From positions 1-64,000 of the forward strand of contig QPGO01000271.1 of NCBI GenBank assembly GCA_008632985.1: a stretch of 64,000 nucleotides of DNA, given 5' to 3'. Below the pieces are notes generated by a model, which was given only the letters and a program-made list of their open reading frames with translations, searched no databases and was not told where the DNA came from. This DNA comes from Psammoneis japonica (lineage: Eukaryota). Shown piece by piece: positions 11,465 through 46,100 of the stretch (the stretch's first letter is position 1; every line of letters starts with the position of its first letter). Made by a program: the position numbers and the translations under genes.

Positions 11465-13950
11465 AAGAACAAGCACAACAAAAGTGGAGTGAAGTGCAAA
11501 AAGCGAAAATTGTGAGATTGGATTTTGCTCAATCATTTTGGGATTCTCGGAACAAGTTCTCAATGGCCCAAAGCTTCTGCACTGCTTCTGCAGACCAAAG
11601 GCTTTTTGGAGAATGTGCCCATGAAAACAGATTGTCCGGATGCAATTGCCGCTGTCACATGAGATGTCAACATCGTCAAGTGATTGCACTCACAATTTCC
11701 GACATCAAATCATTTTTGTGTGACTGATCTGTCCTTTACACGAACCCACAATTGACGTGTGATTGAGAACACAACAATGTTGATGTGTGAACATGTGCAC
11801 AACAATGCACACCTTGCATGTGCCCCCACCAATTGCACGTCAAAGTCATTCATCAAATGGCACAATGTGACAGACATTGACAGTGTCAACCACGCCACCA
11901 TGTTTGATCTGTGCTGTGCCATCAGTGTGCGCCATTGTCATGGCATGCGGTCCAGCATGTGGCTGCTCTAATTTTTTGGAGCATTTTTTGAGTGGTGTCT
12001 TTTCTCTTGTTCTGTGCACACATGGAGTGTGTTGAGTGTTCTTTTGATTACATTGTTTTTGTTTTTGATTTGTGTTGTCTCCGTTTCTGGACTGGCTTCC
12101 AATCAGCAATGTGTTGGACATCAAAAATGATGTTTTCATTAAAGACGTGTTCCAGCTCCAGGTGGGAGACGCGCTCCAGCTCTGGGTGGGACCTTGCACT
12201 TCTGAACTTTGACACAAATGTTTTTTCATCTGTCGCATGTTTTGCACGTGCATTTCTGCGTGTTCTGTCATAAAAAATTGTTCCACACTGCCTTTTTTGT
12301 GAAGCCAAAGGCTTTCTGATGTTGTCCACATTTGTGCCCAACAAAAATGCACTGGTTGTGTTCTTCAATGTCTGAAGAACATGCCTGGGCACACTGCAAA
12401 GAGTGTGCTTCAAGTGTGGAGGAGGAGATGCATTCGCAAAACTGCCTTTTTTTCCATTGGCAATCATTGACATGTTCGTTGCTCAACAATTTTGCTGCGG
12501 AGCTTGCACGCAGACTTCTGCGGACCCGATGTCACAAAAAGTCCAACCTGTGACTGGAACCTGTTGAGACCTTGCACTGCTGAACTGTGACACAATTGTT
12601 TTTTGTCATCTGTTGCATGTTTTGCGCGCACATTTTCACGTGTTCTGTGACAAAAAATTGCTCCACACTGCCTTTTTTGCAAAGCCAAAGGCTTTCTGTT
12701 GTCTGTGTGTGCTGGGGGTGTGGGCCAGCTTGTTGCCGGAGTTGCAGGGTGGAAGTGCAGCAGCACTTTAAATGTGGAATTTTGGTTTTGTTTTGTTGTC
12801 TGCACTTTTGACAACAAAGATGCACTGGGTGTGTTTTTTAATGTCTGAAGAGTGCACCCGGGCATGCTGCAAAGAATGCACTTCAAGGTTGGAGGAGGAG
12901 ACACGTTCGCAAAATTGCTTCTTTTTCCATTGACGATCATTCATGTGTGCATTGCTCAACAATTTTGCTGCAGAGCTTGCACATGGAATTCTGTGGGCCC
13001 AATGTCACAAAAAGTCCCACCCAGGACTGGAGCCTGTCTGAAGACCAATTGTCCTGGTGTGGCTTGTGCAGCAGCATGACACGTTGAACTCACTGCAAAG
13101 GCTGCTCCTGCCAGCATTCCATCAAAGGGATTCTGGGCATCCAGAGGTGCATGCTGCAAATCAAAAGTGCACATCATGTTGCCAAGTGCTTGGTGCACAT
13201 GCTCAATTGTGGTGTCAGCTTGTGGATTTCGTGCAGCTGTGGGACTGACTTTTGTGTCACAGTCTTCTTGAGCCACGTCTCCATCTGATGAACTCACTTC
13301 CATGGTCACATGCAATTGACAATGCCCAAGGGTGTTTGCTTGACCATGTTCTTTCCAACAGTCCAGCAATGGCTGTGGATTCCTCATTTAGAATTTCCAC
13401 AACTTCAAACAATCCGGCTGCTTGATCAGCCATTGTCAAACATTTTAGGACCAGGGCTTTCTTCTTTCCCTTGCAATGCATTTTCCATGGTCCAATGAGA
13501 TCCACACACAGTTGTTCCCATGGCGCTGATTCTGCACACTCAAGAGGCAAATGTCCACATTTCATGTGTTCCCATTTGAATTTCTGGCATGTCTCACATT
13601 TTGACATGCATTTTTGCATGTCTTCACACAAGGCAGACCACCACAAGTGTTGTGAGATTGTTTCTTCTGCTCTGTTTGTGCCAGGATGAACAAGGTGCGC
13701 ATGGCGCCAATCTGTTGCCACTTTTTGCAATGTCTTTGGAGCAACGATTTCATCCTTGTGACATGTGAGCAACCGGTCTTGCTTGCCTCCACAAAAAGTC
13801 TTTACATGAAGTGTCTCTCATTGGACAATTTGGAGAGAATGTCTTTGTCCTGTTTTTGTTCAGCATCAAGTGCTTTGCATGTTTAACAGATGGACATTGT
13901 CACAGGATTTTGGTGGGTCCTTGTCAGCCATTTCTTCTGTGCTGAGATTT
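11465..13950 (-). mobile_element. Old Ty3/Gypsy remnant: integrase plus diverged 3' LTR (~11465-11818) homologous to the LTRs at 33051/33428/41104
   Basis: HLVHPG..CETCQKFK..PWEQLCVDLIGPW (13257-13772) and NPQA..TPGQLVF (12956-13387), resuming as IIFDVQHIADW left of 12143; 11556-11594 is the TA-converted reverse complement of LTR core TCTGTAGAAGCAGTGCAGAAGCTTTAGGCCATTGAGAAC; PPT-like GTGCAATTGGTGGGGGCA. Confidence 0.8.
12144..13038. mobile_element. Nested MITE pair: inner 12168-12565 inserted in the left TIR of outer 12144-13038
   Basis: Two adjacent TIR starts (GACGTGTTCCAG, GACGCGCTCCAG) and two TIR ends; outer TSD TAAA/TGAA, inner GGGA/GAGA; splits the Gypsy integrase frame. Confidence 0.8.
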
Positions 13951-14978
13951 TTCACAGGTTCTGACATCTTGAATGTTGGGCAGAGGAAATGGAGCACGCA
14001 CTGGCCTCTTGTTCAGTTCACAACAGCCTGACAGGAACCAAACTCGACCATTTTTCTTTGGTTGAACAAAGGTTGGAGCTGCTCATTTGGAGCAATCAAT
14101 CACTCTCAAGACCTTTGGCTCACACAGTCACTCAACTTCCTTTCAGCGAGTCATTCTTTAGAATTGCTGTGCATCAATTTTTTTTAAATTGACAGTTTTC
14201 CTCACTGAGAGTGTCTGAGACTTGGACATTTTCTGAGCTGCACATGCAGTTGCCATTCAAACTGAACAAATGCTGACATTCTGTCATGAACACAGGCAAT
14301 TTATGTGCCATTGGCCATTGGTCCACCATCGCTCATTTGGTGGCCCTGGCAGCGCAACATCTCACAATTCTAGAACCTGTTGATGCTGTTCAACACCCTG
14401 TCTTGTCTTTCACCCAATTCTCAGCCATCATGGCAGCATTTGCTCACTTTGTCAGTGCCAACATGCTGTGATGTTCATCGCCTGGAACGTGCACAGCAAA
14501 CGGCACGACGGCATTGTTGTGGTCGATCGATTTTTGCGGCAAGCGCCATGTTGGTCCCATGGTTGCTCACGTGTGTGTGTCGTTGTTCATGGATGTGAAC
14601 AATGTGCTCTTGGAGACCAGAGCCGTGATCTGTTGGACATGACGTCAGTGGACGGAATGTTTGATCACATGGATGGAATGTGTTGGCTGAGACACACAAA
14701 CGTCGTGATCAAGACAAGACAATGTTTCATGCATTGAGGTCTGTCATTTGATCACAAACATTTTTTGACAAATCAAGGTGCATTGTCAAATTGTTTGGAC
14801 ACTGCACATGTGGATGCATGTCTGTTGCTCATCATTGCTCAGGAGTGACACCGCCTGCTCGCGGGTTCACCAAGTGGGAACCACCAAATTGGCACGAGAA
14901 CCACACATTTTTCTCACTTTTCTCCACTCACACAAGTGGATGCTCACGCGTCGAAACGCAAACAACTGTTGACACACA

Positions 14979-16393
14979 ATGGCTGCTGCCGCAGCCTTTG
15001 CCGCTTGTCTTGCACGTTGTGGGCACAATGCGCAGACGCACACCTGCACAGCCGGTCAAGGCTTTGCTGCCATTGACGACCTGGAACAGGCCCCTTTGGC
15101 AGAAATTGCTGACATGACTGAGGGTGTTGTGAAAAGAGTGGATGCCGCCGCTGGCCCCAAGTCTGCTTCCCACACCTGGCGAATCGCAAGTTCAAGGCAC
15201 TGCGCACATGGATTGACTGCCGCAGAGCCCAAAGGCAACAGCCGACTGCTGCGCTCTTTGCTGGTGACGTCATTGGAACATGGACGGCATGTCTCATGGA
15301 ACTGAAACAATTCAAGTCAGCAGACTCAGATGACGAATCGGCTGCCAAGATGGCCGTGGAGCTCAGGAATCTGTGTGACTGGCCTGCCTTCCAAGAGTCA
15401 CTGGAGACCGAACTGCACCACCACCACAGTGCCGTCACCGGCATGCCCCTTGTCCACCTGATTGGGGAGCATGAAGACGTCGCCACTGAAATGTTGGCTG
15501 CCACCTGCACTGCCATTGACGAGGACCTCATTGCCACTGCTTGACTTGCAGGAGCTCAGCACACGCAGGGTGGGCAATGCCTGTGTGATCTCTTGAAGAA
15601 GTCAGTGACATGGGGGCCCGGATGGGCTTTTGTCAAACCCCGCAATCGCGATGGTCGCACTGCTTTCTTTGCACTCAAGAGGCAGGTGGAAGGATCGGCT
15701 GCCGCCACTGCCCAAAAGAACGATGCTCATGCACAGATTGCCACTGCGAAGTGCACCGGACGGGGTCGATTTACTTTCGACCAGTGCACTCAGCCCCATC
15801 AAAAGGCTCACAACAACTTGTCTGAGCTTGATGAGCCGGTGGCTGAGACCAAGAAGGTCTCTGACTTTCTAAAGGGCATCTCCAACCCTGGGTTGGAGAC
15901 TGGCAAGAGTGCAGTGGATGGAGACCTGATGAAGCTGGTGGATTTTGAAGCATGCCAGCAGCACATGAAGACTCTGAAAGAAAATGCAAAGAACTGCAAT
16001 GCTGACACTTGCAGAATCGCATCCATCCAACGCCGCAACAACCGGCATGGAAACCCTGGCGGAAAGCACCAACCTAAAAAGGACAAGCCCAGGATCCGGT
16101 CAGGCCATTGTCCCTTTGAAGAGTGGAGTGCTCTTGATGGTCCTGAACGAGAGCAAGTTCAAAAGCTCCGTGATGCCAAGAAAGCCAAAAAGAAATGCAA
16201 AGCTGCAGCTGCGTCCTCGGATGATGAGTCGGTTGATGCCAAAACTCGCGCTGTTAAGAAAGTGGCCATTGCCGAGCCCAGTCCTCAACCTGCTGATGAA
16301 CCAAAGGACTCCGAAGAGCCTGACAAACTTGCCGCCAATGCAGGCACCCAGTTCGGACGCAGTGCACATGAGAAACCTCAGAAGGAGGAATGA
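14979..16393 (+). pseudogene. Copia A gag (disrupted)
   Basis: WPAFQESLE..GMPLVHLI, DGRTAFFALKRQVEG, FTFDQC..HQKAHNNL, ETKKVSDFLKGI, typical of stramenopile Copia gag; split across ORFs. Confidence 0.75.
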
Positions 16394-23200: not shown

Positions 23201-23487
23201 ACACAGTTCAGCTGCAACTTCTTCATGGTGTAGAGGCATTGTGGTGCACGCGTTCGCATCAGGTGAGTCACTGTTTTTCGCATTGTTCTGCACTGTTGTA
23301 CAAGTCGCGTCGTCATCCAAACCTTTTTGGCGTTTGTGTTCATGAAATTGATGACGAGCACAGTCTGCTTCATCGTTCAAATGTTGGAGGGCTTCTTTCA
23401 TTGGCAAAGAAGTTGCAGCATCCTCTGGAGTTGCCACAGTTTGGGCCCTGGGTGACTGCATTGTCCACAATCAACGGTGTCGCATTG

Positions 23488-28738: not shown

Positions 28739-31700
28739 CCCTTGGCTTAAGTTCCCTGCTGCAAAGGGATGCTTCTACTCTGACCAGATGTTTTCGAAGG
28801 TCAAATTGACACATGGCAAGATGGGAGGAAGCGCACTTGCCAACGGAAGAGGGTGTGACAGGTTCCATCCTTGGAAGAGGAAACAGGACCACCCAAACGG
28901 CGTCATGTCATTCACACATGACGTTGGTGCACCACAAGTCCTTGTGTTGGTTGGCATGCCAGAAATGGCAGAAGGCCAGACCAAAGAGATTTGCAAGGAA
29001 TGCAGGATGCACCAGGAGGTGTCCACCCCGTGCAGCCCCTGGCAGAACCTGGCCAAGGCATCCATTCATGAGTTGAAGAAGAGAGTCCGTGTGACTCTAC
29101 GCTGGACTGGCGCTCACAGGTGACTTTGGTCCTGTGGCGCCAAATGGACATGTGACATCCGACGCATGATTGCAACCAGCATGTCGGGTGTGGGAGGGCA
29201 AGTCCCAGAAGAGGAGGTGACAGGTTCAACACCTGACATCTTGTCCCTCTCCCTCTTTGACTGGCATCAACCTGTCTGTTGCTGCACGCCTGTGGCGGAG
29301 TTCCCACATGAGAAGAAATGCATTGGCCATTGGCTCGGAGCAGCTGACAATTGCACTGACGACATGGCATTTGTCATTTTGACCGAATCAGGCAAGCCCA
29401 TCATTTGGAAGGATGCATGGGCCGTGCCGGAGGATGACCTTAAAACTCCGGTGATCCAGACGGATCTTGCATCGGTCGATCAAACGGCTTAGCATCCTGG
29501 AACAGGGTGCCAGTGCTGACTTCCCTGAACTCCCTGATGACTTCATGGACGAATGGGATGATGCCGTTGAACCCGTGGAACCCGACAACTCCAAACCGGA
29601 AGCTGATGAGCATGCCCCGGAAGGGCCAGATGAGCATCTCACAGCTCAAGTCATGTTGCCACGCGGAGGCGAGCTGACTCATGACAGGGTCATTGCATGC
29701 AAACAAGACAGCGATGGGGTTCCCATTGGTGCTGGGAACAACAACCCTGTCCTGGACTCGAGGACATGTGACATGGAATTTCCTGACGGATCCACTGATT
29801 CCCATGCTGCCAATGCAATTGCAGAGAACCCATTCACTCAGATCAACTCTGAAGGGAATGCCTGCCAGATCATGAAGGAGACAGTCGATCACCGACGTGA
29901 TGCCCGTGCCACGACGGCTGATGACGGGCACACAACGGCGTTTGGGTGGTCCTGTTTCCTCTTCCAAGGATGGAACCTGTCACAACCTCTTCCGTTTGTA
30001 AGTGCATTTCCTCCTGTCTTGCCATGTGTCGATTTGACCTTTGAAAACATCTGGTCAGAGCAGAGGCGTCCCTTGACAGCAGGGAACTTAAGCCAAGGGG
30101 CTTTCTTCCAGACTTTCCATTTGGTGGTGCACAGACATTGCGGACCCCTGCCTGGGTCGTCACTCCAAGGGTGTTCTCAGCGGCCATCAGGCCAATGTCC
30201 CACCTTTTAGAAAGTGTCTTGGGTGTGATGGTCAATGCACGACTCGAGGTCGACAGTGCATGCACCCGTTTCCACTTGGCACAATCCGGGTGGACATCTG
30301 GGTCATGCCGGTTGTGTGGCCCGTCTCCCTCAATGTCATTGTGGGAGACATTCACCTGAGCAACCAGGCGGTGACACAAAGAATCGTCATCATTGGCGTC
30401 CACAATGACGCTCTCATTGTGATGGGATGTTTGATGTGAATGAATGGAGGCGACACACCTGGTCGCATTCATCATCGTCAACTGTTTGTCAGACTTTGCT
30501 GATCCTTGGCGCACACTCGCACATGTGCGTGCTTCCTCCTTTTGCTCCAGGGCATCAGCAGAAGGCTCCCATCTCAGGGGTGATGTGAGTTCCAGCCGGG
30601 GGAGGTTCTCCAGATCCTCCTTTGTCGGCTTGTGTGAATCAAAGACTGAAGCAACACCTCGCATTCGCAATGGCACCCTGATCTTCGTGTCAGGGAAAGA
30701 AATGCAGTGTTTGTCAGTTGGGTCAAACTGGCAAGGGGCATTGTGGACAGTCAGTCCATTCTCTCGCAGTTGGTTGGGGCACAGGAGAGTGTCAGTCATC
30801 TTGTCCCCAAAAAACACAGCCTCATGGACTGGCAGTGGGTGTGGTTGTCCATCAGTTGGATCAACCCACACGGCAGCAGCCGCGCAAATGGGAACATTTT
30901 TCATTGGCGCATGCTCTTCGGAGTGAGGGTGCACCACGACAGATCTGTCGACATCAGAGTGCATCATAAAATTGGACCCAACAGCACACGTGTCAGCGTG
31001 CGAGTCCAAATCAGTGGTTGCTTCATCATCTGGATTTCCAGCAGATGACAAAGAAGTGTGTGTGTCCTTTGAGAATCGCTTGGACAAATGTGCAGTGCCA
31101 GCAGGTGCAGCGACATTCAGTTCTGTGCCTTTTGGTGCTGGCGCAACTGTTCATTCCTCCTTCTGCGGTTTCTCATGTGCACTGCGTCCGAACTGTGTGC
31201 CTGCATTGGTGGCAGGTTTGTCGAACTCTTCGGAGTCCTTTTGTTCATCAGCAGGTTGAGGATCAAGCTCGGCAATGGCCACTTTCTTAACAGCGCACGT
31301 GTTGGCATCAACCGATTCAGCCTCTGAGGATGCAGCTGCAGCTTTGCATTTCTTTTTGGCTTTCTTGGCATCGTGGAGCTTCTTGACTTGCTCTTGCTCA
31401 GGGCCATCAAGAGCACTCCACTCTTCAATGGGACAATGGCCTGCCCGGATCCTGGGCTTGTCCTTTTTAGGTTGGTGCTTTCCGCCAGGGTTTCCATGCC
31501 GGTTGTTGCGGCGTTGGATGGACGCGATCCCACGAGTGTCAGTGTTGTGGTTCTTGGCATTTTCTGCCAGGGTCTTCATGTGCTGCTGGCATGCTTCGAA
31601 ATCGCCAGCTTCGTTGGGTCTCCATCTACCACACTCTTGCCAGTTTCCAACCTGGGGTCGGAGACACCCTTTGGAAAGTCAGAGACCTTCTTGGTCTCGG

Positions 31701-34700
31701 CCACCGGTTCATCAAGCTCGGACAAGTCGTTGTGAACTTTTTGATGACGCTGAACGCACAGTTCTTTGCATTTTCTTTCAGAGTCTTCATGTGCTGCTGG
31801 CATGCTTCAAAATCCACCAGCTTCATCAGGTCTCCATCCACTGCACTCTTGCCAGTCTCCAACCCAGGGTTGGAGATGCCCTTTAGAAAGTCAGAGACCT
31901 TCTTGGTCTCAGCCACCGGCTCATCAAGCTCAGACAAGTTGTTGTGAGCCTTTTGATGGGGCTGAGTGCACTGGTCGAAAGTAAATCGACCCCGTCCGGT
32001 GCACTTCGCAGCAGCGATCTGTGCATGAGCACGGTTCTTTTGGGTGGTGGCAGCAGCCAATCCTTCCGCCTGCCTCTTGAGTGCAAAGAAAGCAGTGCGA
32101 CCATCGCGGCTGCAATTGGAAGGTTGGACAAAAGCCCATCTGGGCCCCCCATCACCAACTTCTTCAAGAGATCATGAAGGCATTGCCTGTCCTGCGTGCA
32201 CTGAGCTCCTGCAAGTCAAGCAGCAGCAATGATGTCCTCGTCAATGGCAGTGTGGGTGGCAGCCAACATTTCGCCGGTGACGTCTTCATGCTCCCCAACC
32301 AGGTAGATGAGGGGCACACTGGTGACAGCACTGTGGTGGTGACGCAGTTCGGTCTCCAGCAACTCTTGGAAGGCAGGCCAGTCACACAGATTCTTGAGCT
32401 CCATGGCCGTTTTGGTGGCCGATTCGTCATCCGAGTCTGCTGACTTGAATTGCTCCAGTTCCGTGAGACGTGCCGTCCATGTTCCAACAATGTCGCCAGC
32501 AAAGAGAGCAGCGGACGGCTCTTGGTTTTGGGCTCTGCGTCAGTCAATCCATGTGCGCAGTGCCTTGAGCTTGTGATTCGCCAGGCATGGGAAGCGGACT
32601 TGGGGGTTGGCGGCGGCATCCACGATGCCCTCAGTCATGTCAGTGATCTCTGTCAAAGGGAGCTGTGTGGGTGCATGTCTGTGCATTGCATCCACAATGT
32701 GCAAGGCAAATGGCAAAGGCTGCGGCAGCGGCCATGGTGCACCAGCAGTTGTTTGCGTTTTGATGCGTGAGCATCCACTTGTGTGAGTGGAGGAAAGTGA
32801 GAAAAATGTGTGGTTCTCATGCCGATTTGGTGGTTTCTACTTGGCGAACCCGCGAGCGGGCGGCGTCACTCCCAAGTGACAATTGGCAACAGACATGTGT
32901 CCACATGTGCAGTGTTGTGTGTGATCAAATGACAGATCTCAACACATGAATTGCCATGTCATCTAAATCACGAATGTTCACATGCCTTGCCCAACATGTT
33001 CCATCCATGTGATCAAACATTCCGCACACCAACGTCATGTCTGACGGATCTGCAGTGTGCGACTGTCACACACATGTTTGTGATCATGTGTCATTTGCAC
33101 GTCAATCGCACCACAGTCGTGGATGCGCACAAAGGACAGAACGATCACACAGAGTTGATCGGATGTCGAGAATTGCAAATACGATCGATTGACGATGTTG
33201 ACATCTTGCGTGTCAACAGCAATCGCATCCGGACAATCTGTTGTCACGAATGTGTTCTCCGAAAGGCCTTTTGTCTGTAGAAGCAGTGCAGAAGCTTTAG
33301 GCCATTGAGAACTCGTTTGGAGAAACCAAAAATCACAGAGCAAAATTTGACCTTATAATTTCCACTTTTCGCACACTATTCTACTTTCGTTTACACTCGT
33401 TCTTCGAGCATAGTGCATTGTGTATAATGCAGCATGCGACTGTTACATGCATGTTTATGATCATATGTTATTCACATGTCAATCGCACCACAGTCGTGGA
33501 TGCGTACAAAGGACAGAACGATCACACAGAGTTGATCGGATGTCGAGAATTGCAAATACGATCGATTGACGATGTTGACATCTTACGTGTCAACAGCAAT
33601 CGTATCCGGACAATCTGTTGTCACGAATATATTCTCCGAAAGGCCTTTTGTCTGTAGAAGCAGTGCAGAAGCTTTAGGCCATTGAGAACTCGTTCGGAGA
33701 AACCAAAAATCACAGAGCAAAATTTGACCTTATAATTTCCACTTTTCGTACACTATTCTACTTTCGTTTGCACTCGTTCTTCGAGCACAGTGCATTGTGT
33801 CTGTGGTAAAAAGCACGAAAAATGAAAATTTTAACTAATGTGCCTTTGCAAATTCTTCTATGAACAGGAACGAATCGCATCAGTTCTGCTGGAATCGATT
33901 TCCGAGCGGAAGAAGCTCAAGCCGAGCAGTGCCTCAAGATGGAACGCTGTTTTTCGTCTACCAGACAAGAGGATTCGCTCCAGTGCAGTCTGTTCCAAGT
34001 GTCTCAGGACCAAGGACTCTACAAGAACACAGCATTGTCGAAACATCCACACCAAGTCATGGTTGGGTAGAATTTCAAGTCTTGAGTCGATCAGATCCGA
34101 GAAATACGTCTACCATGCAAGGAGAGACTATTGGAGAGTTTTTTGAGACCGAATCGATGATCCTCGAGTCCAAGGAGCAAGAGGGAATCGTTGGAAAGTA
34201 CCTCAAGCGTCTCATAACTCATGTCCTCCAAGAACTGCACTTCAGAATCAGAGTTGTTATTTTCGAGATGATCTGAAGAAACCCAAGGCTCTCAGCAGCA
34301 AGAGAGTGCCTGTTCGACCCAAGAGGTCAATGATGAGAGTCTGTGCGACCCTCAGATCGATTCTAAGTCGAATCTAGCGGGAAACCGAGCGCTGATTTAT
34401 CAGCCATCACTCGCACCGCAAGGATGGCAGCATCAGCCTGCTGTCCAAAACATTGGGTTGTTGGATCATGCCCTTGACGAGCTGATTGAGGTTTGAGTCG
34501 TCTAGAGGTCGGCGAGGACGTCTGTGACAAAAAAAACATGTCAATTCAGGCTCTGATAGCGCAGTTGATTCCACAATCAAAAAGGTTCCAATTTTGGTTC
34601 CAAAAATGGTCTCCCACATGGTGCCACCACAATCCAAAGTGAATGCAAGGTCTCATCTTTGAAAAAAGAACACCTGCATCACGGATTGAAGCTGTTCTAA

Positions 34701-37589
34701 AAATGAACTAGCAAAAGAGTGCAAGGGTGACTCTGAAAGAGACCCAAAAATGCGCCGTTCAAATGGCAATCGCACGCGGTCGCGTCGCGACAACGAAAAT
34801 GCCGCTCGCAAAAAAAGAGATGAACGTCATGATTGATCAGGTGGTTCAAAAAACACTCAAAGCAAGTTCCTTGAACAAAGAAAAAGAGCACAAGGGCAAA
34901 GAATCAGATTCTGACACCCTCAGTGAAGAAAAATGCCAAATTGATTGGATGATCCAGACTGAATCCGAAGAACAATTTTGGTCTGTTCACGAATTGCATG
35001 CTTTGCTGGATGTTAGGAAGCCTGGAAAAAAGGCAGAAATAATTCACACTGGTCCAGGAGTCATCATTTACATGATTGCTTCCTTGGGAAAGGAGAGAAA
35101 AAAAAAAGCATCTACGTGTTCCTGTCGATGACGGAACATCGTCAACCACAATTTTGCGCAAATTCGTGCGAAAGTTGAGAACACAAGAATCCGCCACCAA
35201 AAACTTGGGAAACCAAGGGTGAGCTCTTTACGACTGACAGTAAACACCGAATTCAGTTCTCACTGTGCGAAATTTAAGGCATGCTGATGTTCAAACAGCA
35301 CATGTTGAAAACACCAAATTTTCTTCAGGTTCAAATGATGTGATCATGGGACGCGACTTAATGTCCAGTCCTGCAAGTCACACTGGACTACGCAAATGAA
35401 GAAATCTAATGGGAAGAAGCAATTGCCTTATGAAGAATGTTCATACACTCTTCGATGCCGATGTTTTCAAGCTGAAAACCGATCACATTGAAAAATGTGA
35501 CGCCGTGAATGGAGTCAACAACGGAACCAATGGTCCTCGACTCACATCATCACGCCATCGATCTTAATCAAGTGACAACTACGGCGATGCATCTAACCCA
35601 AATGAACACAACCAACTCAATCTTCTTCTCAAGAGGTTGAAATCGTTTTGAAAAGTTCCTCAGACGAATGTGTGGGAAGCATCAGTGGATCTCATCGTGG
35701 AAAATCTGACGCGATTCCACGACGCGTGAGAACCTTCTCCTATCACAGTCTTTGGAGGCGTCCAATCAAAAGGAGTTTGACCCATTGTGAAAGATTGAAG
35801 TCTTAAGAATGAAATTGCTCTGAACAAGTCGCTCTGAGACTCATTGTCCAAAGAAAACAGGTCGAGTTCGACCGCACCCGACACTCAGAAGCTCAGTGTA
35901 AGGTTCGTGCAGGTGGTGTATCCTTTACCCAATATTCAGGAAATGCCATTGAAGCAAGAACGTTTCATGTGTGTAATCTATTTGATTCAAACATGGAATG
36001 CCACCATGTCAAATAAAAAAAGCACACGTCGTGCTCACACGAAAATCATGCCGTGGGGAGAAAATGAGCACTGTGGACTTCCAATGAGAATCTATAGAGC
36101 CCCAGACATTTTTATACAACACTTGAGTGAACTCATAACAGGTTTGAAGTTGTCAGAACGACCACATGTGATCGTTTGTGCCTGACAAAAGTAACTTCAA
36201 AATGTCACCTGTGCAAGTAACAGCTCAACACGGCATTCAAACGACTAGAACAGTCGCTTAGAAGGTTAACAACAAAAGTCCTTCACTATTTAACTTGAAA
36301 TAAACTATCAAGACTTCCATACGTAACGACATGCATTCGATTACAAAGAAAATGGAGGCGATTCAAGCCATCGCAACATGAGAAAAACGTAAAGAACACT
36401 ACGACATCTCGTCGTTATACGTTACTACTATCGAGACATGTAGTCTCAACGATCTCCTGTACAATACTAGCCAGATTCACCTCAATAAAGGTCAAACGGC
36501 AAAAGTACAAGTACGGAACGAAAAGTCTCCGAAAATATGGAGCGTGTCAAATCAAAAACTACATTGTTATCATACACGTATTTCAATGTTATACGTTACA
36601 ACGGAAAAAAGAACTTCTGTCCATAGTGAAAACACTTAAAAAATTCCGAAATATTATATTGTTTGGCCAACAGATTTATGTATATATACGGATCATAAGA
36701 CACAACGGACAAAGTCATACGTTGACGACTTACAATAGAAAACTTCAGTCCCCAATTAAAATACAGCGAGGACAAGGCGAACATCGTCGCGATAGACGCG
36801 ATCAGCCGACTTACTATAGAAAATTGAATCCTACGACAATGTCCTACCGTTAAAACGGGTTAAAGACATTCCCTCCAAATTGTCGGACGCGACATATCAT
36901 ACGAACACTTTTCGTGGAGGCGAGCGAGATCGAAAAATGCTCATGTCACAAGGATAAAATCGCCTTTTTAAAGGACGATTTAGGAAAAAACAGTGACAGA
37001 TTGGTGTACATTATACGTATCCACTTCACACTGGCAAAAGACAATCTCACAACACCCGTACGGTTGTATTGTACAATGTACGAGGCAAGACATTAAAATA
37101 TACATCATGTCGACACACGAGATGTGCCAAAGATCTAGAAAAAGAAAAGAAAAATGGACATTTATCCACTTAGTGCACGAAACCAGTGCCTTCGGAATGA
37201 CAAAATAACACCGGTATGTCAGAAAGAAACATCTAAATAACGATTAAAATCCAACTGATAGATGGTTGAAGTACAAAAAAAAAATCCATAATGGAATTCA
37301 TAACCATCACAGGATTGATTGTCAAGACGAAATGGTCATAACATCTTTGACCATCGTTTATTATTACTTATGAAACGTGGTAGTGCAGCAGAGCAATATA
37401 AGACTGACTAAATAAAAAGGAAACCATGGAAAACAGACAGACGTGATGGTTGCTTTTGAGAAAAAAGCAAAAAACCATCACGCGCACCGCAAACCGCAGC
37501 AGCACCATGGAGGTGCCGCTGTGTTCATAAAAAGCGACCGTCACTGGGACAACATCACACGGTTAAAAGCATTGACATAAGGTAATGCG

Positions 37590-38020
37590 AATCTGTCGAG
37601 TGTTCTGGTGGTGTTTGTTTTTTGGCATCATCTAAAATTCTTGTTGCAACACTCTGTTTAGATGGACAGCATGTTTGTGGTTTCTCTGCGACTCGGCTAC
37701 ATTCATGAATCGACCCTCACTGGAACAATGTCACATGATGCAGAGCATGGACATGACTCAATGTGAATGTGACGAGTGTGATGGTTGTGTTTGTTTTTTG
37801 ATGTCGTCTAAAATTCTTGTTGCTGCACTCTGTTTGGATGATTTTGTGTGGTTTCTACGCAACTCGGCCATGCTCCGTATTGATGAAGCGACCATCACTG
37901 GGTCAATGTCACATGATTAACATCATGGATGTGAGGTAACATGAATGCATCGAGTGTGATGGTTGTGTTTCTTTTTGGTGTCATCTAAAATTTTTGTTGT
38001 CACACACTCTGTTCAGATGG
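37590..38020 (+). repeat. Three ~177-bp subterminal tandem repeats in the Sola-like element
   Basis: GAGTGT..TGGT.GTGTTT..TCTAAAATT.TTGTTG..CACTCTGTT at ~37598, ~37773, ~37952. Confidence 0.8.
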
Positions 38021-38051
38021 ACAGCGCCGCCGACGTGATCGCTCCAACCAA

Positions 38052-40346
38052 TCAACCGTGCCAGAAGGGACCATGTGGACGCGCCAAAATTTCCTCAATG
38101 GTAGAACAGTTAAGAGTGGAGTGAAGGGTTTGCATGTGCTGTTGTACTTCAGCAGCTGCAGTTGGATGCAATGCCGCAATCGGAAGCATTTGTTGTTGTA
38201 GACCATGCGGGTTGACGAAATTCGGGTTGACGAAATGCGGCGGCGGCGGGGCGGCAGCAGCAGCTGGTGCTGCAGGTTGCTGGGCTGTAAAATGTGGTTG
38301 AGTGGCAGGAACAGCTGGGGGTTGAGTGGACGCAGCAGCAGCAGCGGCAGTGGGAGATTGTCTTGATCTCGAATTGGAAACAGTCTTTTTGCTCCTTTTG
38401 GCCTTGTCTGCTTTTGACTTGTTGTGTCTGTCGATCATTGCTTGTGGTGGCATGGGGCAAATCTCATCCTGACACTCCACTGGAACATGCTTCCTCCATT
38501 TTGTCCCAAGCTCTATTTGTTTAATGTCGGGAATTCCAGGAAATGGAATGACCTGGGGTGCCGCCTGCAAGAGCTCCATTCTGTTGCTGTTGGTCCCAGG
38601 CTTTTTGAATTCTCTTGTGGCAGTCTCACCTTGATCCTCCTCCCGGCAAGACACCTGAATTTTCATGTCAGTTGGCGAGGCTTTTGTCACAGAAAAGATG
38701 TGGCTCTTGTGGACGGTGCTGGGGGCGAAGCGTCGATACAATGAATCGAGTTTCTTATCCCAGTCTTGGAAGTCTTCCTCGTCCACAGCGGTTGCGGTAG
38801 TGTTCTCGTTTTCATTCAACAATTCCATCATTTGCTTGAAGGTGTGGACATTGGAGTCTCTGCACAGCTTTTTCAAGATGTCACACATCCGGTCGCAAGG
38901 GTTCTTTGTGTGCCCGACTACAAGAAACACAAACTGTACGGTTTGACAGAATCCCCGCTCAACCAAGTAGAGGGCCAGCCGAAGAACCATCCTGTTCTTG
39001 TTCTGACCCGAGCAGTTGTCCACAACAATGGCAAGCTTTACTCGAATTTGCTTTGCTGTTCCATCATCATTGACCTCCAAATGCCCTTTGTCCTTTAGAC
39101 ACTTCACAACGAGTGATGCGACGTTGTTGCCTCCTTTTTTACCTTGGCCCTCGTGGTGCACGTATGCTTGGAGCAAGTTGTCTTTCATGTTGACAAGTCC
39201 AAAACAATTTACATTCAATGGAGAAAAGCAGTGAGTGTCACCTGATTGCTCATTGCCAAGGTGTGGAAGGTCCATGTTTTCGGAACAGTCGCCAACAAGC
39301 ACGTCAATAAGTTCCTGTTCAAGGCATTCGGCAGTGAGAGAATTGAACAGTTCTCTCTGAGCAACAGCCTGTTGGATGTGGATTTGAGCTTTTGCTGCTG
39401 CCTCCTCTCTCCTCAGACATCCATTCACTGGAGTGTCACTGCTGTTCAAAGGACGAGGCGACGAGAAGCAACGAAAAGCATGCGACAGCACAAAGCAGTC
39501 AGAACAAACATCCTCCCTAGCTTTAGGAAGAACCAGCTTTGGGTGGCTTCTCTTCCAGAAAGAACGGAAAGTTTCAAAAACAACTGTCTTTTGCGGCTCC
39601 ACGTCTTCTGCTGCTTGTGTCAATTCAATCGCCCCTTTGTCATTCTTGAGCTTGGCTTTCCATCCTCGTTCGCCAACCCATTTGCCGTACAGTCGGCGAG
39701 CCGTCCAATGGGTTGGGAGCTCCAGCAGCTCCTCATCATCATCCCTGGTCCCTGTTCCGACTTCTAGTCGAACAAACCTTGTGGCTCGAGGAGAAGCAAG
39801 TTCCATCATGTCTTTGAAAAAAACATGCAACGACGTTTCCACATCTACCTTCATTCTTGCATTTGATGGTTTACCCTTGTTGCCATGCGACGTCACCATG
39901 TTTGATTGAATCGCCTCTTTCACCCTTCTGTCAGCTTTTTGACGTACATTCACAATGTGCTTGAAAGCATTTTTGCATGTCAACACGTCGGAGCCCGGTG
40001 GCTTGCCCGCAGCTGGAACGGGAAGAAATTTCGCGGACTGGCATGACCGACATTGTTGCAGGATGTAGCTCTCCCTGTCGTCTCTGCTCTTGTGTGCCAC
40101 CTCATCCAACATGAACTTTGCAATGCAGGGAAGCCACTCTGTTCGCGTCCGAAAAGCATGCAAACATTCGCACCTCGTTGGCCGCCCCCGAACATCCACA
40201 CACTTCGGGCTGTCAAACACATTTTGAAGAAATTCCTTGCACATCTCAAGAGCATCCTCACGTGAAGGGTGAGGCTTAACTCTGAGCTTTGCATGCAGGC
40301 TGCCAACTGAGTCAGACCGGTTGTTGCCGGCATCGTCGTCATCCAT
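38052..40346 (-). CDS. Sola-type DDD transposase, 764 aa, open but partly Tyr->Cys/His converted (probably inactive)
   Basis: DVCSDC, DCSENMDLP, DTHCFSPLNVNCFG, EGQGKKGGNNVAS, DNCSGQNKN, FLVVGHTKNPCDRM. Confidence 0.85.
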   Translation of the reverse strand: MDDDDAGNNRSDSVGSLHAKLRVKPHPSREDALEMCKEFLQNVFDSPKCVDVRGRPTRCECLHAFRTRTEWLPCIAKFMLDEVAHKSRDDRESYILQQCRSCQSAKFLPVPAAGKPPGSDVLTCKNAFKHIVNVRQKADRRVKEAIQSNMVTSHGNKGKPSNARMKVDVETSLHVFFKDMMELASPRATRFVRLEVGTGTRDDDEELLELPTHWTARRLYGKWVGERGWKAKLKNDKGAIELTQAAEDVEPQKTVVFETFRSFWKRSHPKLVLPKAREDVCSDCFVLSHAFRCFSSPRPLNSSDTPVNGCLRREEAAAKAQIHIQQAVAQRELFNSLTAECLEQELIDVLVGDCSENMDLPHLGNEQSGDTHCFSPLNVNCFGLVNMKDNLLQAYVHHEGQGKKGGNNVASLVVKCLKDKGHLEVNDDGTAKQIRVKLAIVVDNCSGQNKNRMVLRLALYLVERGFCQTVQFVFLVVGHTKNPCDRMCDILKKLCRDSNVHTFKQMMELLNENENTTATAVDEEDFQDWDKKLDSLYRRFAPSTVHKSHIFSVTKASPTDMKIQVSCREEDQGETATREFKKPGTNSNRMELLQAAPQVIPFPGIPDIKQIELGTKWRKHVPVECQDEICPMPPQAMIDRHNKSKADKAKRSKKTVSNSRSRQSPTAAAAAASTQPPAVPATQPHFTAQQPAAPAAAAAPPPPHFVNPNFVNPHGLQQQMLPIAALHPTAAAEVQQHMQTLHSTLNCSTIEEILARPHGPFWHG

Positions 40347-41989
40347 TGCGATTGTGGACGAAAGACAGTTGCTGCTGCAGGAAAATGGTGTGCCATTCTA
40401 TTTTCTGAAAAAAATAAAAATGGCTGCCAAAAGTGCACCAGCGGCAACAACAGCAGCTTCTTACGTGGCTGACAAAGTGCGTGGCATGCAATTTACGCGC
40501 ATTTTGAAGAGTGCGCGCATCCGGCATGCGATCCCATGGAAACCCCAAGATTGGTGCCATTTTTCAAGAAATCGGACCCACAAAATGACCGACACATCGT
40601 TTGAAAGCATTTTTGCTCTAGTTTTCACTGATGCCAAAAGCAAAAAACTCAATTTTTGGCCCAAAATTGGCAAATGGTGACCTTTCTATTTAGTCAGTCT
40701 CACATGGCACACAAAGCAAGCCCGCCAAACTACATGAAATCCACAAGCAAGCAAGTGAACGCCATAATTAAGAGCGTACATTAAGTGCTGGGCACGATGC
40801 TATGTACAATCGACATCAGGAAAAACACTTACTCCAGGACAATTAGTCCTTGTGTTCATATCAACAAGAACGTCAATGAGAATACTCGACGTAATACCAC
40901 ATATATACACATTAAGTGAGAAACAAACAATGTCACTCTCAAAAGACATTCGGAAATTGGAACGGCCCTATATTGCCTATACAAAACAACAACAGTCATT
41001 GCTAATGGCACAATACAGTGAAAGTGGAGACATTGTTGACACTGTCGATGTCCGTCGAACAATCCACTTACAAATGACTCTAATGTGCAATTAGGGAGGC
41101 GAATGCAGTATGCGACTGTTACACACATATTTATGATTATATATTATTTATATGTCAATCGTACCACAGTCGTGGATGCGTGCAAAGGACAGAACGATCA
41201 CACAGAGTTGATCGGATGTCGAGAATTGCAAATACGATCGATTGACGATGTTGACATCTTACGTGTCAATGGCAATCGTATCCGGACAATCTGTTGTCAC
41301 GAATATATTCTCCGAAAGGCCTTTTGTCTGTAGAAGCAGTGCAGAAGCTTTAGGCCATTGAGAACTCGTTCGGAGAAACCAAAAATCACAGAGCAAAATT
41401 TGACCTTATAATTTCCACTTTTCGTGCACTATTCTACTTTCGTTTACACTCGTTCTTCGAGCATAGTGCAGATCACAGCTCTGGTCTGAAGAGCACATTG
41501 TTCACATTCATGAACATTGATGTGTGCAAAGGACTCGGTGATCACGCGAGCAACCATGGGACCAACATGGCGCTCACCACAAAAATTGATCGATCGCAAC
41601 AATGCCATCGTGCCGTTCGCGATGCCCATTCCAGGCGATGAACATCATGGTGCATTGGCTCTGACAAAGTGAACAAATGCTGCCATGACAGCCAAGAATT
41701 TGGTGCAAAACAAGACAGAGTGTTGAACAGCATCAGCAGGTTCTAGAATTGTGAGATGTCACACTGCCGGGGCCACCAAATGAGCGACAGTGGACCAATC
41801 GCCAACAGTGCACAAACTGCCTGTGTTCGTGACAGTGTGTCAGCATTTGTTCACTGGAGCAGGCCAAACAACTTGTGCACCCACACTGCAATGATTGCCA
41901 AGACAAGCTTTGCCTTTTGCTGTGGTCCACTGGCTCTGACAGACATTTGTGTGCATTTCAATTGTGACATTTTGAAAAAATTTGCAGGT

Positions 41990-45552: not shown

Positions 45553-46100
45553 TTAATGCAACTTTCTTCTGTGTGAGCAATGCATTGTCAATTGGCCCTT
45601 TGCACAAACCTGCTTTTTACCTCTGCTGACTTGCTGCTTGGCCAGTTTTGCATTCCAACAACTGCTTGTTCGCACTCTTGCCATGTCGAAATTGTGGACT
45701 GGACATGCCATGTTCCTTCGACCCGAATTCGTTTTGTTGGGCAAAGCTCGGTGCAACGTTCTTGCATCAAAAACAAATGCAGTGCCTGCTTCTCCAACCA
45801 GCAATTGTTTTTCCAAACCCAACCTGACCAAGTGTCTTTCACGTTCCTTCTCATTCAATGTTGCCTCACAACCAACTGGCCATGTCTCAACTGCACCATT
45901 GTGCTCCATTGTGTCATTGAGGAACAGAAACATGGTGAAAATTTTGTTGCCAGGTGACAACTTTGTTTCCACGTAATTGCGATGAATTTCCCCCTTTGAC
46001 CAGAAGTTTGATCTTGAACTTGAAGCAGGAGCGTTTGCCAGTGTGTGCCGGGATGTCATTCTGCATGAATCACCTGCCAGGAGAAAGCCAGGAATTAACT
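45553..46100 (-). pseudogene. PhyH-like 2-oxoglutarate/Fe(II) dioxygenase domain
   Basis: IHRNY (HxD; CGC-AAT derivable from CGC-GAT by CpG decay), TMFLFLND..NGAVETWP, GEAGTAFVFDARTLHRALPN..R. Confidence 0.7.

What the first reader, a model, noticed from the sequence alone, without database searches (positions are those of the whole stretch)
33170..41470. TA-retaining island with sharp, element-aligned boundaries
TA is normal at ~35.9-37.4 kb and 40.7-41.47 kb. It drops inside the Sola TIRs and vanishes right after the 3' LTR (41471). LTR1 is converted at its left end but not its right. Targeting therefore follows element identity, copy number or age rather than chromosomal position alone, with possible short-range spreading from the flank. 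This fits a homology-dependent trigger, or a young insertion carrying an already-converted Sola copy.
Basis: partly seen in the sequence, partly recalled or inferred. Interest (0 to 1): 0.8.

Follow-up and report, generated by a model that had tools for sequence, protein, structure and literature searches.

The report
Young transposon inside TA-erased repeats
A recently inserted retrotransposon still keeps many of its TA dinucleotides inside old repeats from which a TA-to-TG/CA mutation process has removed nearly all of them, so it shows this rare genome-editing process part-way through.

Summary
The 64-kb window has a TpA observed/expected ratio (o/e) of 0.11 and CpA/TpG of 1.64. Only 33.05-41.47 kb keeps TA.

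That block is one insertion: a non-coding LTR retrotransposon with three 367-nt LTR copies and a GATC target duplication. A paralogous empty site lies at 14.63 kb. A 3.3-kb DUF7869 ("Sola"-labelled) DNA transposon is nested at 37400-40701.

Of 29 variable LTR columns, 27 are TA->TG or TA->CA. This is post-integration DNA hypermutation on both strands, about 400-fold faster than other changes (lower bound 75-fold). An old copy of the same LTR family at 11.5 kb is fully converted. Read depth suggests the TA-rich LTR element is high-copy and the TA-poor nested transposon low-copy.

TA retention therefore follows time since insertion, not family identity or copy number. The sharp right edge is simply the insertion boundary. 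The nested transposon is a hypermutated pseudogene (conserved Tyr->His/Cys) that probably arrived already converted.

Two things age does not explain:
- Conversion is patchy. LTR_a has 18 of 19 sites converted on its left and 1 of 9 on its right.
- It depends on context. RTAY is erased and TTAA resists.

The closest precedent is the 2026 Bigelowiella natans TpA-hypermutation preprint.

The parts
33047..33050 (.). Left target-site duplication GATC of the LTR-element insertion
   Evidence: GATC lies directly before LTR_a and directly after LTR_c. The paralogous empty site has a single GATC.
33051..33417 (+). LTR_a (367 nt, TG..CA ends). The left 205 nt are almost fully TA-converted; the right 162 nt are not.
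   Evidence: 19 of 28 ancestral TA sites converted (18 of 19 left, 1 of 9 right). CpG o/e is 1.31 in the converted part.
33418..33427 (+). 10-nt spacer between the tandem LTR copies. Its first 6 nt equal the 6 nt that follow LTR_b.
33428..33794 (+). LTR_b (5' LTR proper), partly converted
   Evidence: 11 of 28 sites converted, 8 of them among the 12 sites in columns 27-80
33795..36200 (+). 5' interior of the LTR element; no coding domain found; partly TA-depleted (o/e 0.27)
36201..37395 (+). Middle interior of the LTR element; TA-retaining (o/e 0.84) and CpG-rich (1.45)
   Evidence: An old converted paralog of 36852-37201 lies at 13856-13511.
37396..37399 (.). Left 4-nt target duplication ATAT of the nested DNA transposon (inferred)
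   Evidence: X1 contigs of other LTR-element copies join 37397 to 40714 with about 10 other letters between
37400..40701 (-).
   Evidence: inverted arms 37393-37427 and 40674-40708; low summed depth (270-455).
38055..40397 (-). 781-aa open frame, DUF7869 transposase-like, hypermutated pseudogene
   Evidence: PF25273, E = 3.2e-19; 109 relatives, best 41% identity. Tyr 0.64% against a mean of 3.0% in homologs; nearly invariant YY reads HC.
40702..40705 (.). Right target duplication, now ACAT (one TA->CA conversion since insertion; inferred)
40706..41103 (+). 3' interior of the LTR element, TA-retaining from about 40731; the purine run AGGGAGGCGAA at 41093-41103 abuts the 3' LTR
   Evidence: An old converted paralog of 40902-41099 lies at 12024-11824.
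41104..41470 (+). LTR_c (3' LTR), least converted
   Evidence: 4 of 28 sites converted; last TA at 41464
41471..41474 (.). Right target-site duplication GATC. The TA-free old repeat resumes here.
14263..15996 (-). Paralog of the host repeat without the insertion (empty site; single GATC at 14627-14630)
   Evidence: 14627-15996 matches 33050-31759, and 14263-14632 matches 41853-41469
11465..12024 (-). Old, fully converted copy of the same LTR family (LTR plus adjoining 3' interior)
   Evidence: 1 TA left in the LTR. At 27 ancestral TA sites it reads CA 14, TG 7, other 6.
13511..13856 (-). Old converted fragment of the same element's interior
   Evidence: 1 TA against 20 in the young copy. Young TA sites read CA or TG in 13 of 20.

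Best explanation
**What the block is.** 33051-41470 is a recent insertion of a non-autonomous LTR retrotransposon into an old repeat. The genome carries a strong DNA-level mutation process that turns 5'-TA-3' into TG or CA, that is, A:T->G:C at TpA, on either strand.

**How the pattern arises.**
- Transposon copies arrive with ordinary TA content and are converted where they sit.
- The old repeats around the island are saturated, with about 95% or more of TA gone, and have also lost about half of their CpG.
- The new element is only part-way through, with 14-68% of known LTR sites converted.
- The sharp right edge is the insertion boundary. No element-specific targeting is needed to explain it.
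- The nested DNA transposon is older DNA. It was probably converted at an earlier location and then moved by cut-and-paste into this copy, which explains the drop at its inverted repeats.

**Two properties of the process itself.**
- It acts in local patches of about 0.2 to 2 kb.
- It has an extended context preference: R-T-A-Y goes first and completely, and Y-T-A-R, above all TTAA, resists.

**Inferred, not shown.** The agent is an enzyme, most simply an adenine deaminase acting on DNA at T-A followed by a pyrimidine. It would be directed to silenced transposon chromatin, as proposed for Bigelowiella natans.
For: **Insertion.**
- GATC flanks both ends, and a paralogous empty site has a single GATC.
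- The LTRs have TG..CA ends, and a purine run abuts the 3' LTR.
- No Pfam family passed its cut-off in 21 interior frames (5, 16).

**Post-integration, TA-specific change.**
- 29 columns vary among the three LTR copies. 27 are TA->TG or TA->CA, 1 is CpG->TpG and 1 is another transition. There are no transversions.
- Both products are mixed within one tract.
- 34 of 84 TA site-copies are converted, against 1 of about 807 other site-copies. The ratio is about 420, with a lower bound of about 75.

**Old copies were converted independently after dispersal.** Nine old paralog pairs (7426 columns) hold 184 adjacent CA/TG double mismatches. The next classes are AC/GT 21 and AT/GC 18, and CG/TA is 0.

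**Age, not identity.** An old copy of the same LTR family has 1 TA left and decayed CpG.

**Not copy number.** In run X1 the summed depth is 6000-18000 over the LTR element and 270-455 over the nested transposon. Contigs of other copies lack the nested transposon: the joint 37397->40714 is seen in 4 contigs.

**Nested transposon damaged neutrally.**
- It has 5 Tyr in 781 aa.
- At 15 columns where at least 60% of 20 homologs have Tyr, it reads H 4, C 3, Y 3, other 5.
- Its CpG o/e is 0.70, against 0.84-1.45 in the host element.

**Context.**
- Survivors in the background are RTAY 1 of 3017, mixed 86 of 6050 and YTAR 110 of 2809 (chi-square p = 8e-31). TTAA accounts for 63 of the 197 surviving TA.
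- The TA-rich parts are flat, at 0.38, 0.31 and 0.33.

**Precedent.** TpA-only A->G/T->C hypermutation of integrated viral DNA, about 1000-fold above background, is reported in B. natans mutation-accumulation lines (bioRxiv 10.64898/2026.01.13.699255; Results and Discussion read).
Against: - Age alone does not explain the unevenness inside one insertion. TA o/e is 0.27 in the 5' interior and 0.84 in the middle interior. LTR_a is 95% converted on the left and 11% on the right. Without other copies I could not tell how much of the 5' interior's loss was inherited from the source copy and how much arose here.
- That the nested transposon was converted before insertion is inferred from its CpG level, its mode of movement and parsimony. 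Conversion in place, aimed at that element, is not excluded.
- Depth from contigs is a poor copy-number measure, as the tool itself warns.
- No host gene lies in the window and no genome is held. Whether ordinary genes are spared is therefore unknown.
- Because TpA is its own complement, sequence cannot say whether A or T is the base first altered. No enzyme was identified.
Confidence: 0.75

Rival explanations
1. Targeted conversion in place. After it inserted, the nested DNA transposon was singled out, for example through small RNAs from its inverted repeats or its own chromatin state. It was hypermutated while the surrounding LTR-element sequence was spared.
For: - TA falls within about 15 nt inside the left inverted repeat and recovers about 30 nt outside the right one.
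- The right target duplication and the adjoining host bases look converted (ACAT). Some conversion therefore did happen here after insertion.
- The preprint proposes RNA-guided targeting as a possibility.
Against: - CpG o/e is also lower in the nested element (0.70 against 0.84-1.45), as expected for older DNA.
- X1 contigs over it have depths of 154-248 with 0-8 differences per 245-446 nt. This hints at several near-identical, already converted copies.
- Cut-and-paste movement carries old DNA without any special assumption.
Confidence: 0.15
2. Homology- or copy-number-triggered mutation, like fungal repeat-induced point mutation (RIP). Sequences are converted because they are repeated, and the island escapes because it is not sufficiently duplicated.
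For: All converted sequence in the window is repetitive (flank depths about 3000-9000). The preprint compares the process with RIP.
Against: - The TA-retaining LTR element has the highest depth of the region (6000-18000). The only low-depth part, the nested transposon, is TA-poor.
- An older copy of the same family in the same window is fully converted.
- In B. natans the hypermutated viral region is single-copy.
- The direction is the opposite of RIP, which creates TpA (recalled; the listings concern fungal RIP).
Confidence: 0.06
3. Spreading from converted, presumably silenced, flanking chromatin. Conversion enters the new insertion from its left edge and decays with distance.
For: - LTR_a is 18 of 19 converted next to the left flank and 1 of 9 further in. 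Its CpG are intact, so this happened in place.
- The 5' interior is more depleted than the 3' part.
Against: - The pattern is not monotonic. The right part of LTR_a (1 of 9) is followed by a converted patch in LTR_b (8 of 12 in columns 27-80).
- The right end of the island abuts equally converted DNA, yet LTR_c keeps TA up to 6 nt from the boundary.
Confidence: 0.3
4. Artefact or foreign DNA. Either the TA-free sequence is a base-calling or assembly artefact of a modified base at TpA, or the island is contamination or a recent horizontal arrival with a different composition.
For: The composition contrast is extreme, and the window holds a few N (42271; 59165-59170).
Against: - Contigs of a public DNA run match the TA-free flanks as well as the island. 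For example, a 285-nt contig at 44710-44994 has 0 differences, and 1959 of the 12501 contigs laid are at least 99% alike. That run may, however, be the assembly's own source.
- The island has a target duplication and an empty-site paralog.
- It has an old, converted relative in the same window.
- The three LTR copies show graded conversion.
Confidence: 0.02

Closest known systems
TpA-restricted A:T->G:C hypermutation of integrated giant-virus and virophage DNA in Bigelowiella natans (Mettrop et al., bioRxiv 10.64898/2026.01.13.699255, 2026; outline, Results, Discussion and term passages read)
   Same: - The same signature: TpA->TpG/CpA only, on both strands, orders of magnitude above other changes.
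- It acts on integrated mobile or foreign DNA.
- It leaves TpA-depleted, CpA+TpG-enriched clusters that are enriched for reverse-transcriptase and DDE domains.
   Different: - Here it is seen in transposons at saturation over at least 55 kb (o/e 0.04-0.07). The preprint gives Rho 0.45 for the viral region and defines clusters as at least 3 consecutive 1-kb windows; the only cluster size it states is 5 windows (4360 bp).
- The organism is unknown and probably different. No Copia or DUF7869 protein above 58% identity was found. This is not proven.
- The RTAY-over-YTAR hierarchy, the roughly 200-nt tract in an LTR and the comparison with CpG decay are not in the passages I read. The term search found 'context' and 'trinucleotide' 0 times.
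Repeat-induced point mutation (RIP) of fungi
   Same: Dinucleotide-specific transition hypermutation of resident transposon DNA that destroys coding capacity.
   Different: - RIP is C->T, mainly at CpA, and so creates TpA. Here TpA is destroyed.
- RIP needs duplicated sequence, and no copy-number dependence is seen here.
- The RIP details are recalled. The preprint's discussion states C->T and the homology dependence.
ADAR-type A-to-I hyperediting of retroelement RNA fixed by reverse transcription
   Same: A->G changes with a preference for a 5' U/T neighbour (stated in the preprint's discussion).
   Different: - The changes here distinguish LTR copies of a single insertion, so they arose after integration.
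- They hit both strands within one tract.
- The 3' neighbour preference here is pyrimidine > G > A. ADAR's is recalled as favouring G.
CpG decay by cytosine methylation
   Same: A second, context-specific transition clock runs in the same repeats. CpG o/e is 0.2-0.6 in the old parts and about 1 in the island.
   Different: It is much slower here: 1 of 63 CpG site-copies changed in the LTRs, against 34 of 84 TA site-copies.

Membership tests
TpA hypermutation as described for Bigelowiella natans | Changes are almost only A->G / T->C transitions | tested here: met
   28 of the 29 variable LTR columns are A/G or T/C changes in the A:T->G:C direction. 1 is CpG->TpG. There are 0 transversions.
TpA hypermutation as described for Bigelowiella natans | Changes fall on TpA and give TpG or CpA | tested here: met
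   27 of 29 columns. 184 CA/TG double mismatches in old paralog pairs, against 21 or fewer for any other adjacent double transition.
TpA hypermutation as described for Bigelowiella natans | Rate orders of magnitude above ordinary mutation | tested here: met
   About 420-fold (lower bound about 75-fold) over non-TA, non-CpG sites of the same LTRs. This is a relative measure, not a rate per generation.
TpA hypermutation as described for Bigelowiella natans | Confined to foreign or integrated DNA while ordinary nuclear genes are spared | not testable with these tools
   No host gene was recognised in the window and no genome is held.
TpA hypermutation as described for Bigelowiella natans | Episodic activity (only some lineages or lines) | not testable with these tools
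   This needs mutation-accumulation or population data. The patchy tracts are compatible with it but are not a test.
Fungal repeat-induced point mutation | C->T at CpA, raising TpA and lowering CpA/TpG | tested here: not met
   The direction is opposite: TpA o/e 0.11 and CpA/TpG 1.64.
RNA-level A-to-I hyperediting fixed by retrotransposition | Changes acquired before integration, so shared by both LTRs, and on one strand | tested here: not met
   The LTR copies of one insertion differ from each other, with TG and CA products interleaved.
LTR retrotransposon | Direct long terminal repeats with TG..CA ends | tested here: met
   Three 367-nt copies, 94-96% alike.
LTR retrotransposon | Short target-site duplication, with an empty site elsewhere | tested here: met
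   GATC on both sides and a single GATC in the paralog at 14627-14630.
LTR retrotransposon | Polypurine tract before the 3' LTR and a primer-binding site after the 5' LTR | tested here: inconclusive
   The purine run AGGGAGGCGAA abuts LTR_c. No primer-binding site was matched to a tRNA.
LTR retrotransposon | gag-pol coding capacity (autonomous element) | tested here: not met
   0 Pfam families above cut-off in 21 interior frames. I therefore file it as non-autonomous.
   Arms at 37393-37427 and 40674-40708, 83% complementary (read).
   ATAT and ACAT are inferred from the filled site and from X1 contigs that lack the insert.
   Only Pfam DUF7869 matched. No Sola reference profile is on hand. 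PMC5751038 (passages) says that Sola domains lacked any Pfam match in 2017.

The most novel reading that the evidence does not exclude
A eukaryote other than Bigelowiella natans runs a DNA-editing defence that erases essentially every TpA from resident transposon copies, within the time that ordinary substitutions take to reach a few tenths of a percent.
- It acts on both strands in patches of roughly nucleosome to kilobase size.
- It reads a four-base context: R-T-A-Y is favoured and TTAA is protected. This context resembles the U33-A34-pyrimidine anticodon-loop substrate of TadA/ADAT-type deaminases (recalled).
- The same signature occurs in an unrelated environmental contig (L066: TA o/e 0.02, 0% Tyr). 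This suggests the system is spread among aquatic protists.
Probability: 0.35. Interest if true: 0.85.

Novelty: new member of a known kind. Interest (0 to 1): 0.66.

Why it matters
TpA-directed A:T->G:C hypermutation of integrated DNA has so far been described once, in a 2026 preprint on one alga. This window shows the same signature at saturation in ordinary transposons. The island also provides a natural time series, with three LTR copies of known common origin, an old copy of the same family and a nested older element.

From that series one can read:
- the speed of the process relative to other mutation, about 400-fold;
- that it acts after integration and on both strands;
- that it is patchy on a scale of about 200 nt;
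- that it has a four-base context preference;
- that it does not need high copy number.

These are concrete constraints on the unknown enzyme and on how it is directed. They also give clear targets for resequencing, chromatin and modification mapping.

One practical consequence follows. Loss of TAA and TAG leaves long spurious open frames: 47 frames of 200 aa or more in 64 kb. A dead transposase also keeps an open 781-aa frame. Gene and transposon annotation in such genomes needs care.

Tried and rejected
- **Whole genome.** None is held, so I could run no genome-wide test of age or copy number and no search for a deaminase.
- **Rfam.** 0 matches at gathering thresholds.
- **Sequencing runs.** No RNA holder is listed. 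Only contigs of one sample were available, so depth is a rough proxy and no raw-read variant frequencies could be seen.
- **Organism identity.**
  - The DUF7869 frame gave 109 hits, best 41% identity. Nearly all are unnamed metagenome proteins, with one diatom entry at 31%.
  - The Copia reverse-transcriptase frame gave 13 hits, best 58%, with no organism names.
  - Cluster look-up of 8 hits gave no names.
  - Protein atlas clusters are animal-dominated DUF7869 clusters and do not help with taxonomy.
- **Tyr depletion in relatives.** None of the 140 proteins held from those searches (hits and cluster members) is Tyr-poor like this copy. The lowest are 1.36% and 1.95%.
- **Metagenome search.** An exact 33-nt LTR word gave 0 matches in metagenome contigs.
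- **Coding capacity.** I sent the stop-free frames instead and found nothing above cut-off.
- **Strand asymmetry.** TG 6681 against CA 6413 in the window, with local skews of at most 0.15 that track A/T skew. There is no sign of coupling to transcription or replication.
- **Earlier findings of this scan.** Nothing on this genome or this sequence. The word search returned only unrelated phage and bacterial notes.
- **Literature.** Five searches found no other report of TpA->TpG/CpA hypermutation than the B. natans preprint. Hits on TpA and transposons were fungal RIP papers (listings only).
- **A modified-thymine route.** I considered 5-hydroxymethyluracil at TpA, recalled for dinoflagellates. 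No paper held all three search terms. Sequence alone cannot exclude it.
- **Sola definition.** The passages read in PMC4455052 and PMC5751038 give no target-duplication length and no Pfam link.


Full report
**1. The observation**

The window is extreme throughout. TpA observed/expected (o/e) is 0.11, CpA and TpG are 1.64 each, and CpG is 0.54. Every 1-kb bin outside 33-42 kb has 0-9 TA.

In 200-bp bins, TA o/e is:
- 0.42-0.60 from 33.2 kb;
- 0-0.43 between 33.8 and 36.2 kb;
- 0.71-1.07 at 36.2-37.0 kb and 0.79-0.81 at 37.0-37.4 kb;
- 0.10-0.37 between 37.6 and 40.6 kb;
- 0.84-0.91 at 40.8-41.2 kb;
- 0.08, 0 and 0 from 41.6 kb.

By segment:

| Segment | TA o/e |
|---|---|
| Flanks | 0.07 |
| LTR_a, left 205 nt | 0.07 |
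| LTR_a, right 162 nt | 0.56 |
| LTR_b | 0.56 |
| 5' interior | 0.27 |
| Middle interior | 0.84 |
| Nested transposon | 0.23 |
| 3' interior | 0.81 |
| LTR_c | 0.73 |

The last TA of the island is at 41464, 6 nt before the LTR end. The next is at 41744.

**2. Anatomy**

*The LTR element.*
- Three direct copies of a 367-nt LTR with TG..CA ends lie at 33051-33417 (LTR_a), 33428-33794 (LTR_b) and 41104-41470 (LTR_c). They are 94-96% alike.
- LTR_a and LTR_b are in tandem with 10 nt between them.
- GATC lies directly before LTR_a and directly after LTR_c.
- The host sequence is itself an old repeat with a second, inverted copy in the window. 14627-15996 matches 33050-31759, and 14263-14632 matches 41853-41469. 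That copy has a single GATC where the island sits. This paralogous empty site shows that 33051-41470 is one insertion with a 4-nt target duplication.
- A purine run abuts LTR_c.
- None of 21 interior frames matched a Pfam family above its cut-off. I read the element as a non-autonomous LTR retrotransposon.

*The nested transposon.*
- A 3.3-kb element with inverted ends lies at 37400-40701.
- It holds a 781-aa open frame on the minus strand that matches only Pfam DUF7869 (E = 3.2e-19). It has 109 relatives, the best at 41% identity.
- Contigs of a public DNA run join 37397 to 40714 with about 10 other letters between (4 contigs). Other copies of the LTR element therefore lack this insert.
- Comparing those letters with the filled site suggests a 4-nt target duplication, ATAT on the left and now ACAT on the right.
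I could not test it against a Sola reference.

**3. The mutation process**

*It acts on integrated DNA and is specific to TA.* The two LTRs of a retrotransposon are identical when it integrates, so differences between them arose in the chromosome.
- Among the three copies, 29 columns vary. 27 are TA->TG or TA->CA, one is CpG->TpG and one is another transition. There are no transversions.
- At 28 sites where the ancestral TA can be inferred, LTR_c has 4 converted, LTR_b 11 and LTR_a 19. TG and CA products are interleaved. The process therefore hits both strands.
- 34 of 84 TA site-copies are converted, against 1 of about 807 other site-copies. This is a ratio of about 420, with a lower bound of about 75. 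Only 1 of 63 CpG site-copies changed.

*The TA-free background has the same origin.*
- Nine pairs of old paralogous repeats (7426 aligned columns) hold 184 adjacent CA/TG double mismatches. These are the mark of one ancestral TA converted independently to the two possible products.
- No other adjacent double transition exceeds 21, and CG/TA is 0.
- The old copies were therefore TA-normal when they dispersed and were converted where they sit.

*There is no long-range strand bias.* The window has TG 6681 against CA 6413.

**4. What decides TA retention**

*Not family identity.* An old, inverted copy of the same LTR family lies at 11465-11830, with interior pieces at 11824-12024 and 13511-13856.
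- Its LTR has 1 TA left.
- At 27 ancestral TA sites it reads CA 14, TG 7 and other 6, and its CpG are decayed.
- In the interior pieces, young TA sites read CA or TG in 13 of 20 and in 10 of 12.

*Not copy number, as far as a rough proxy can tell.* Summed word depth in run X1 is:
- 15000-18000 over the LTRs;
- 6000-13000 over the LTR interior;
- about 3000-9000 over the flanks;
- 270-455 over the nested transposon.

The tool warns that this is not a copy number. Still, the one low-depth part is TA-poor and the highest-depth part is TA-rich, which is the opposite of a homology trigger.

*Age fits.* The island has almost no ordinary substitutions and intact CpG (o/e 0.84-1.45). The flanks have CpG o/e of 0.41-0.57, and old pairs differ at about 3.6% of columns by non-TA, non-CpG changes (264 of 7426).

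**5. The nested transposon**

Its open frame is not evidence of function. TA->TG/CA changes remove TAA and TAG and create no new in-frame stops (my reasoning from the genetic code). The window accordingly has 47 frames of 200 aa or more.

The protein is damaged in the way the process predicts:
- Tyr is 0.64%, against a mean of 3.0% (range 2.3-4.4%) in 20 homologs.
- Cys and His are raised.
- At 15 columns where at least 60% of homologs have Tyr, it reads H 4, C 3, Y 3 and other 5.
- The nearly invariant YY in GDTYYFSP reads HC.

Its TA loss is therefore neutral hypermutation, not adaptation.

I think it was probably converted elsewhere and then mobilised in trans, for these reasons:
- The element is TA-poor right up to its ends while the host sequence on both sides is TA-rich.
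- Its CpG o/e (0.70) is lower than the host's.
- Such elements move as DNA.
- X1 contigs over it, with depths of 154-248 and 0-8 differences per 245-446 nt, hint at a few near-identical copies.

This step is inferred. Conversion in place, aimed at the element, remains possible (about 15%).

**6. What age does not explain**

*Patchiness.*
- LTR_a is 18 of 19 converted up to column 226 and 1 of 9 after it (Fisher p = 2.5e-5; 0 of 1000 permutations reach the best split).
- All 15 CpG of the converted part are intact. This part is therefore not an older piece of DNA. It was converted in place in a tract of about 200 nt.
- LTR_b has a weaker 5' patch, 8 of 12 sites in columns 27-80 (permutation p about 0.06).
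- Within the interior, the 5' 2.4 kb is far more depleted than the 3' 1.6 kb. I could not separate inheritance from local action there.
- Spreading from the left flank is possible. But the pattern is not monotonic, and the right end shows none.

*Context.*
- Of 197 TA that survive in the converted background, 57% have T before and 54% have A after. Only 6% have A before and 6% have T after. TTAA alone accounts for 63.
- As a share of TA+TG+CA in each four-base frame, survivors are RTAY 1 of 3017, mixed 86 of 6050 and YTAR 110 of 2809 (p = 8e-31). The TA-rich island parts are flat at 0.38, 0.31 and 0.33.
- The partly converted 5' interior and the nested transposon show the same order: RTAY 0.06 and 0.045, against YTAR 0.10 and 0.11.
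- Product choice also follows the flanks. TTAT-type frames give more TTGT (541) than TCAT (363), and ATAA-type frames give more ACAA (501) than ATGA (357). This fits editing of the A in 5'-T-A-N with N = pyrimidine > G > A.
- This is suggestive only, because the unconverted baseline is unknown.
- By symmetry the same data fit a change of T in 5'-R-T-A.

**7. Mechanism**

*Shown:* a post-integration, TpA-specific, two-strand, context-dependent, patchy A:T->G:C process that outruns all other mutation in these repeats.

*Inferred:* an enzymatic cause directed to transposon chromatin. The simplest candidate is deamination of adenine to inosine in DNA, as the B. natans preprint proposes with an ADAT2-like candidate. 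The T-A-pyrimidine preference recalls the anticodon-loop substrate of TadA-type enzymes. That is recalled knowledge, not a test.

A route through a modified thymine cannot be excluded from sequence.

**8. Comparison and novelty**

The only precedent I found in five literature searches is the 2026 preprint on Bigelowiella natans.
- It reports TpA-only A->G/T->C de novo mutations, about 1000-fold above background.
- They lie in an integrated giant-virus region and a virophage region.
- The genome also holds 124 TpA-depleted, CpA+TpG-enriched clusters, enriched for reverse-transcriptase and DDE domains.

This window meets the three sequence-level criteria. The criteria on host genes and on episodic activity could not be tested.

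The organism is unknown. The absence of close protein matches and the sheer extent of saturation argue for, but do not prove, a different species.

The signature is not unique to this window.
- Among 80 metagenome loci that encode relatives of the nested transposase, median TA o/e is 0.64.
- L066 has TA o/e 0.02, CpA/TpG 1.84 and CpG 0.27. Its protein fragment has 0% Tyr, 5.5% Cys and 7.2% His.
- L008 has TA o/e 0.26.
- L066 has no nucleotide match to the window. L008 has only one weak 55-nt match, at 75% identity.

**9. Verdict**

The island itself is ordinary in kind: a young transposon insertion in old DNA. The underlying process is rare and barely described, and this locus gives unusually clean constraints on it. 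I rate it a new member of a known kind, with interest 0.66.

Noticed in passing
window 33051-33800: The 5' LTR is present twice in tandem (LTR_a, a 10-nt spacer, then LTR_b). The first 6 nt of the spacer equal the 6 nt that follow LTR_b. LTR_a and LTR_b share the same product at 6 of the 9 sites where both are converted. The duplication may therefore have happened in place after some conversion. Its origin is unexplained.
   Followed up: partly
window 21968-24837 (minus strand): A fully TA-converted Copia-type element: RVT_2 (E = 2.7e-30) and the retroviral SH3-like domain (E = 3.6e-07). Its best database relatives are only 37-58% identical.
   Followed up: partly
whole window: Because TAA and TAG are almost absent, long open frames occur in all six frames: 47 frames of 200 aa or more. 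Of the 28 long frames I scanned, counting the nested transposon's, only 4 match a Pfam family. Open frames are not evidence of genes here.
   Followed up: yes
window 45556-46431 (minus strand): A 292-aa frame with a weak phytanoyl-CoA dioxygenase (PhyH) match (E = 9e-05, just above the cut-off) inside TA-free sequence. It could be a decayed captured or host gene.
   Followed up: no
window 37532-38018: Three tandem copies of a unit of about 176 nt (79% and 61% alike) in the subterminal region of the nested transposon.
   Followed up: no
window 43000-64000: CpG o/e falls further towards the right end (0.18-0.31 at 58-64 kb, against 0.5-0.87 at 20-33 kb), while TA is equally absent. TA loss therefore saturates long before CpG decay does, and the repeats differ widely in age.
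   Followed up: partly
L066 (1502 nt) and L008 (1570 nt), metagenome loci: Environmental contigs that encode relatives of the nested transposase carry the same signature. L066 has 2 TA in 1502 nt and 0% Tyr. L008 has TA o/e 0.26 and reads HC at the conserved YY, as this window's copy does.
   Followed up: partly
window 42271 and 59165-59170: A single N and a run of six N. Neither lies at a boundary of the island.
   Followed up: no
window 31550-31976: Tandem duplication of a unit of about 211 nt (84-91% alike) in the old left flank.
   Followed up: no
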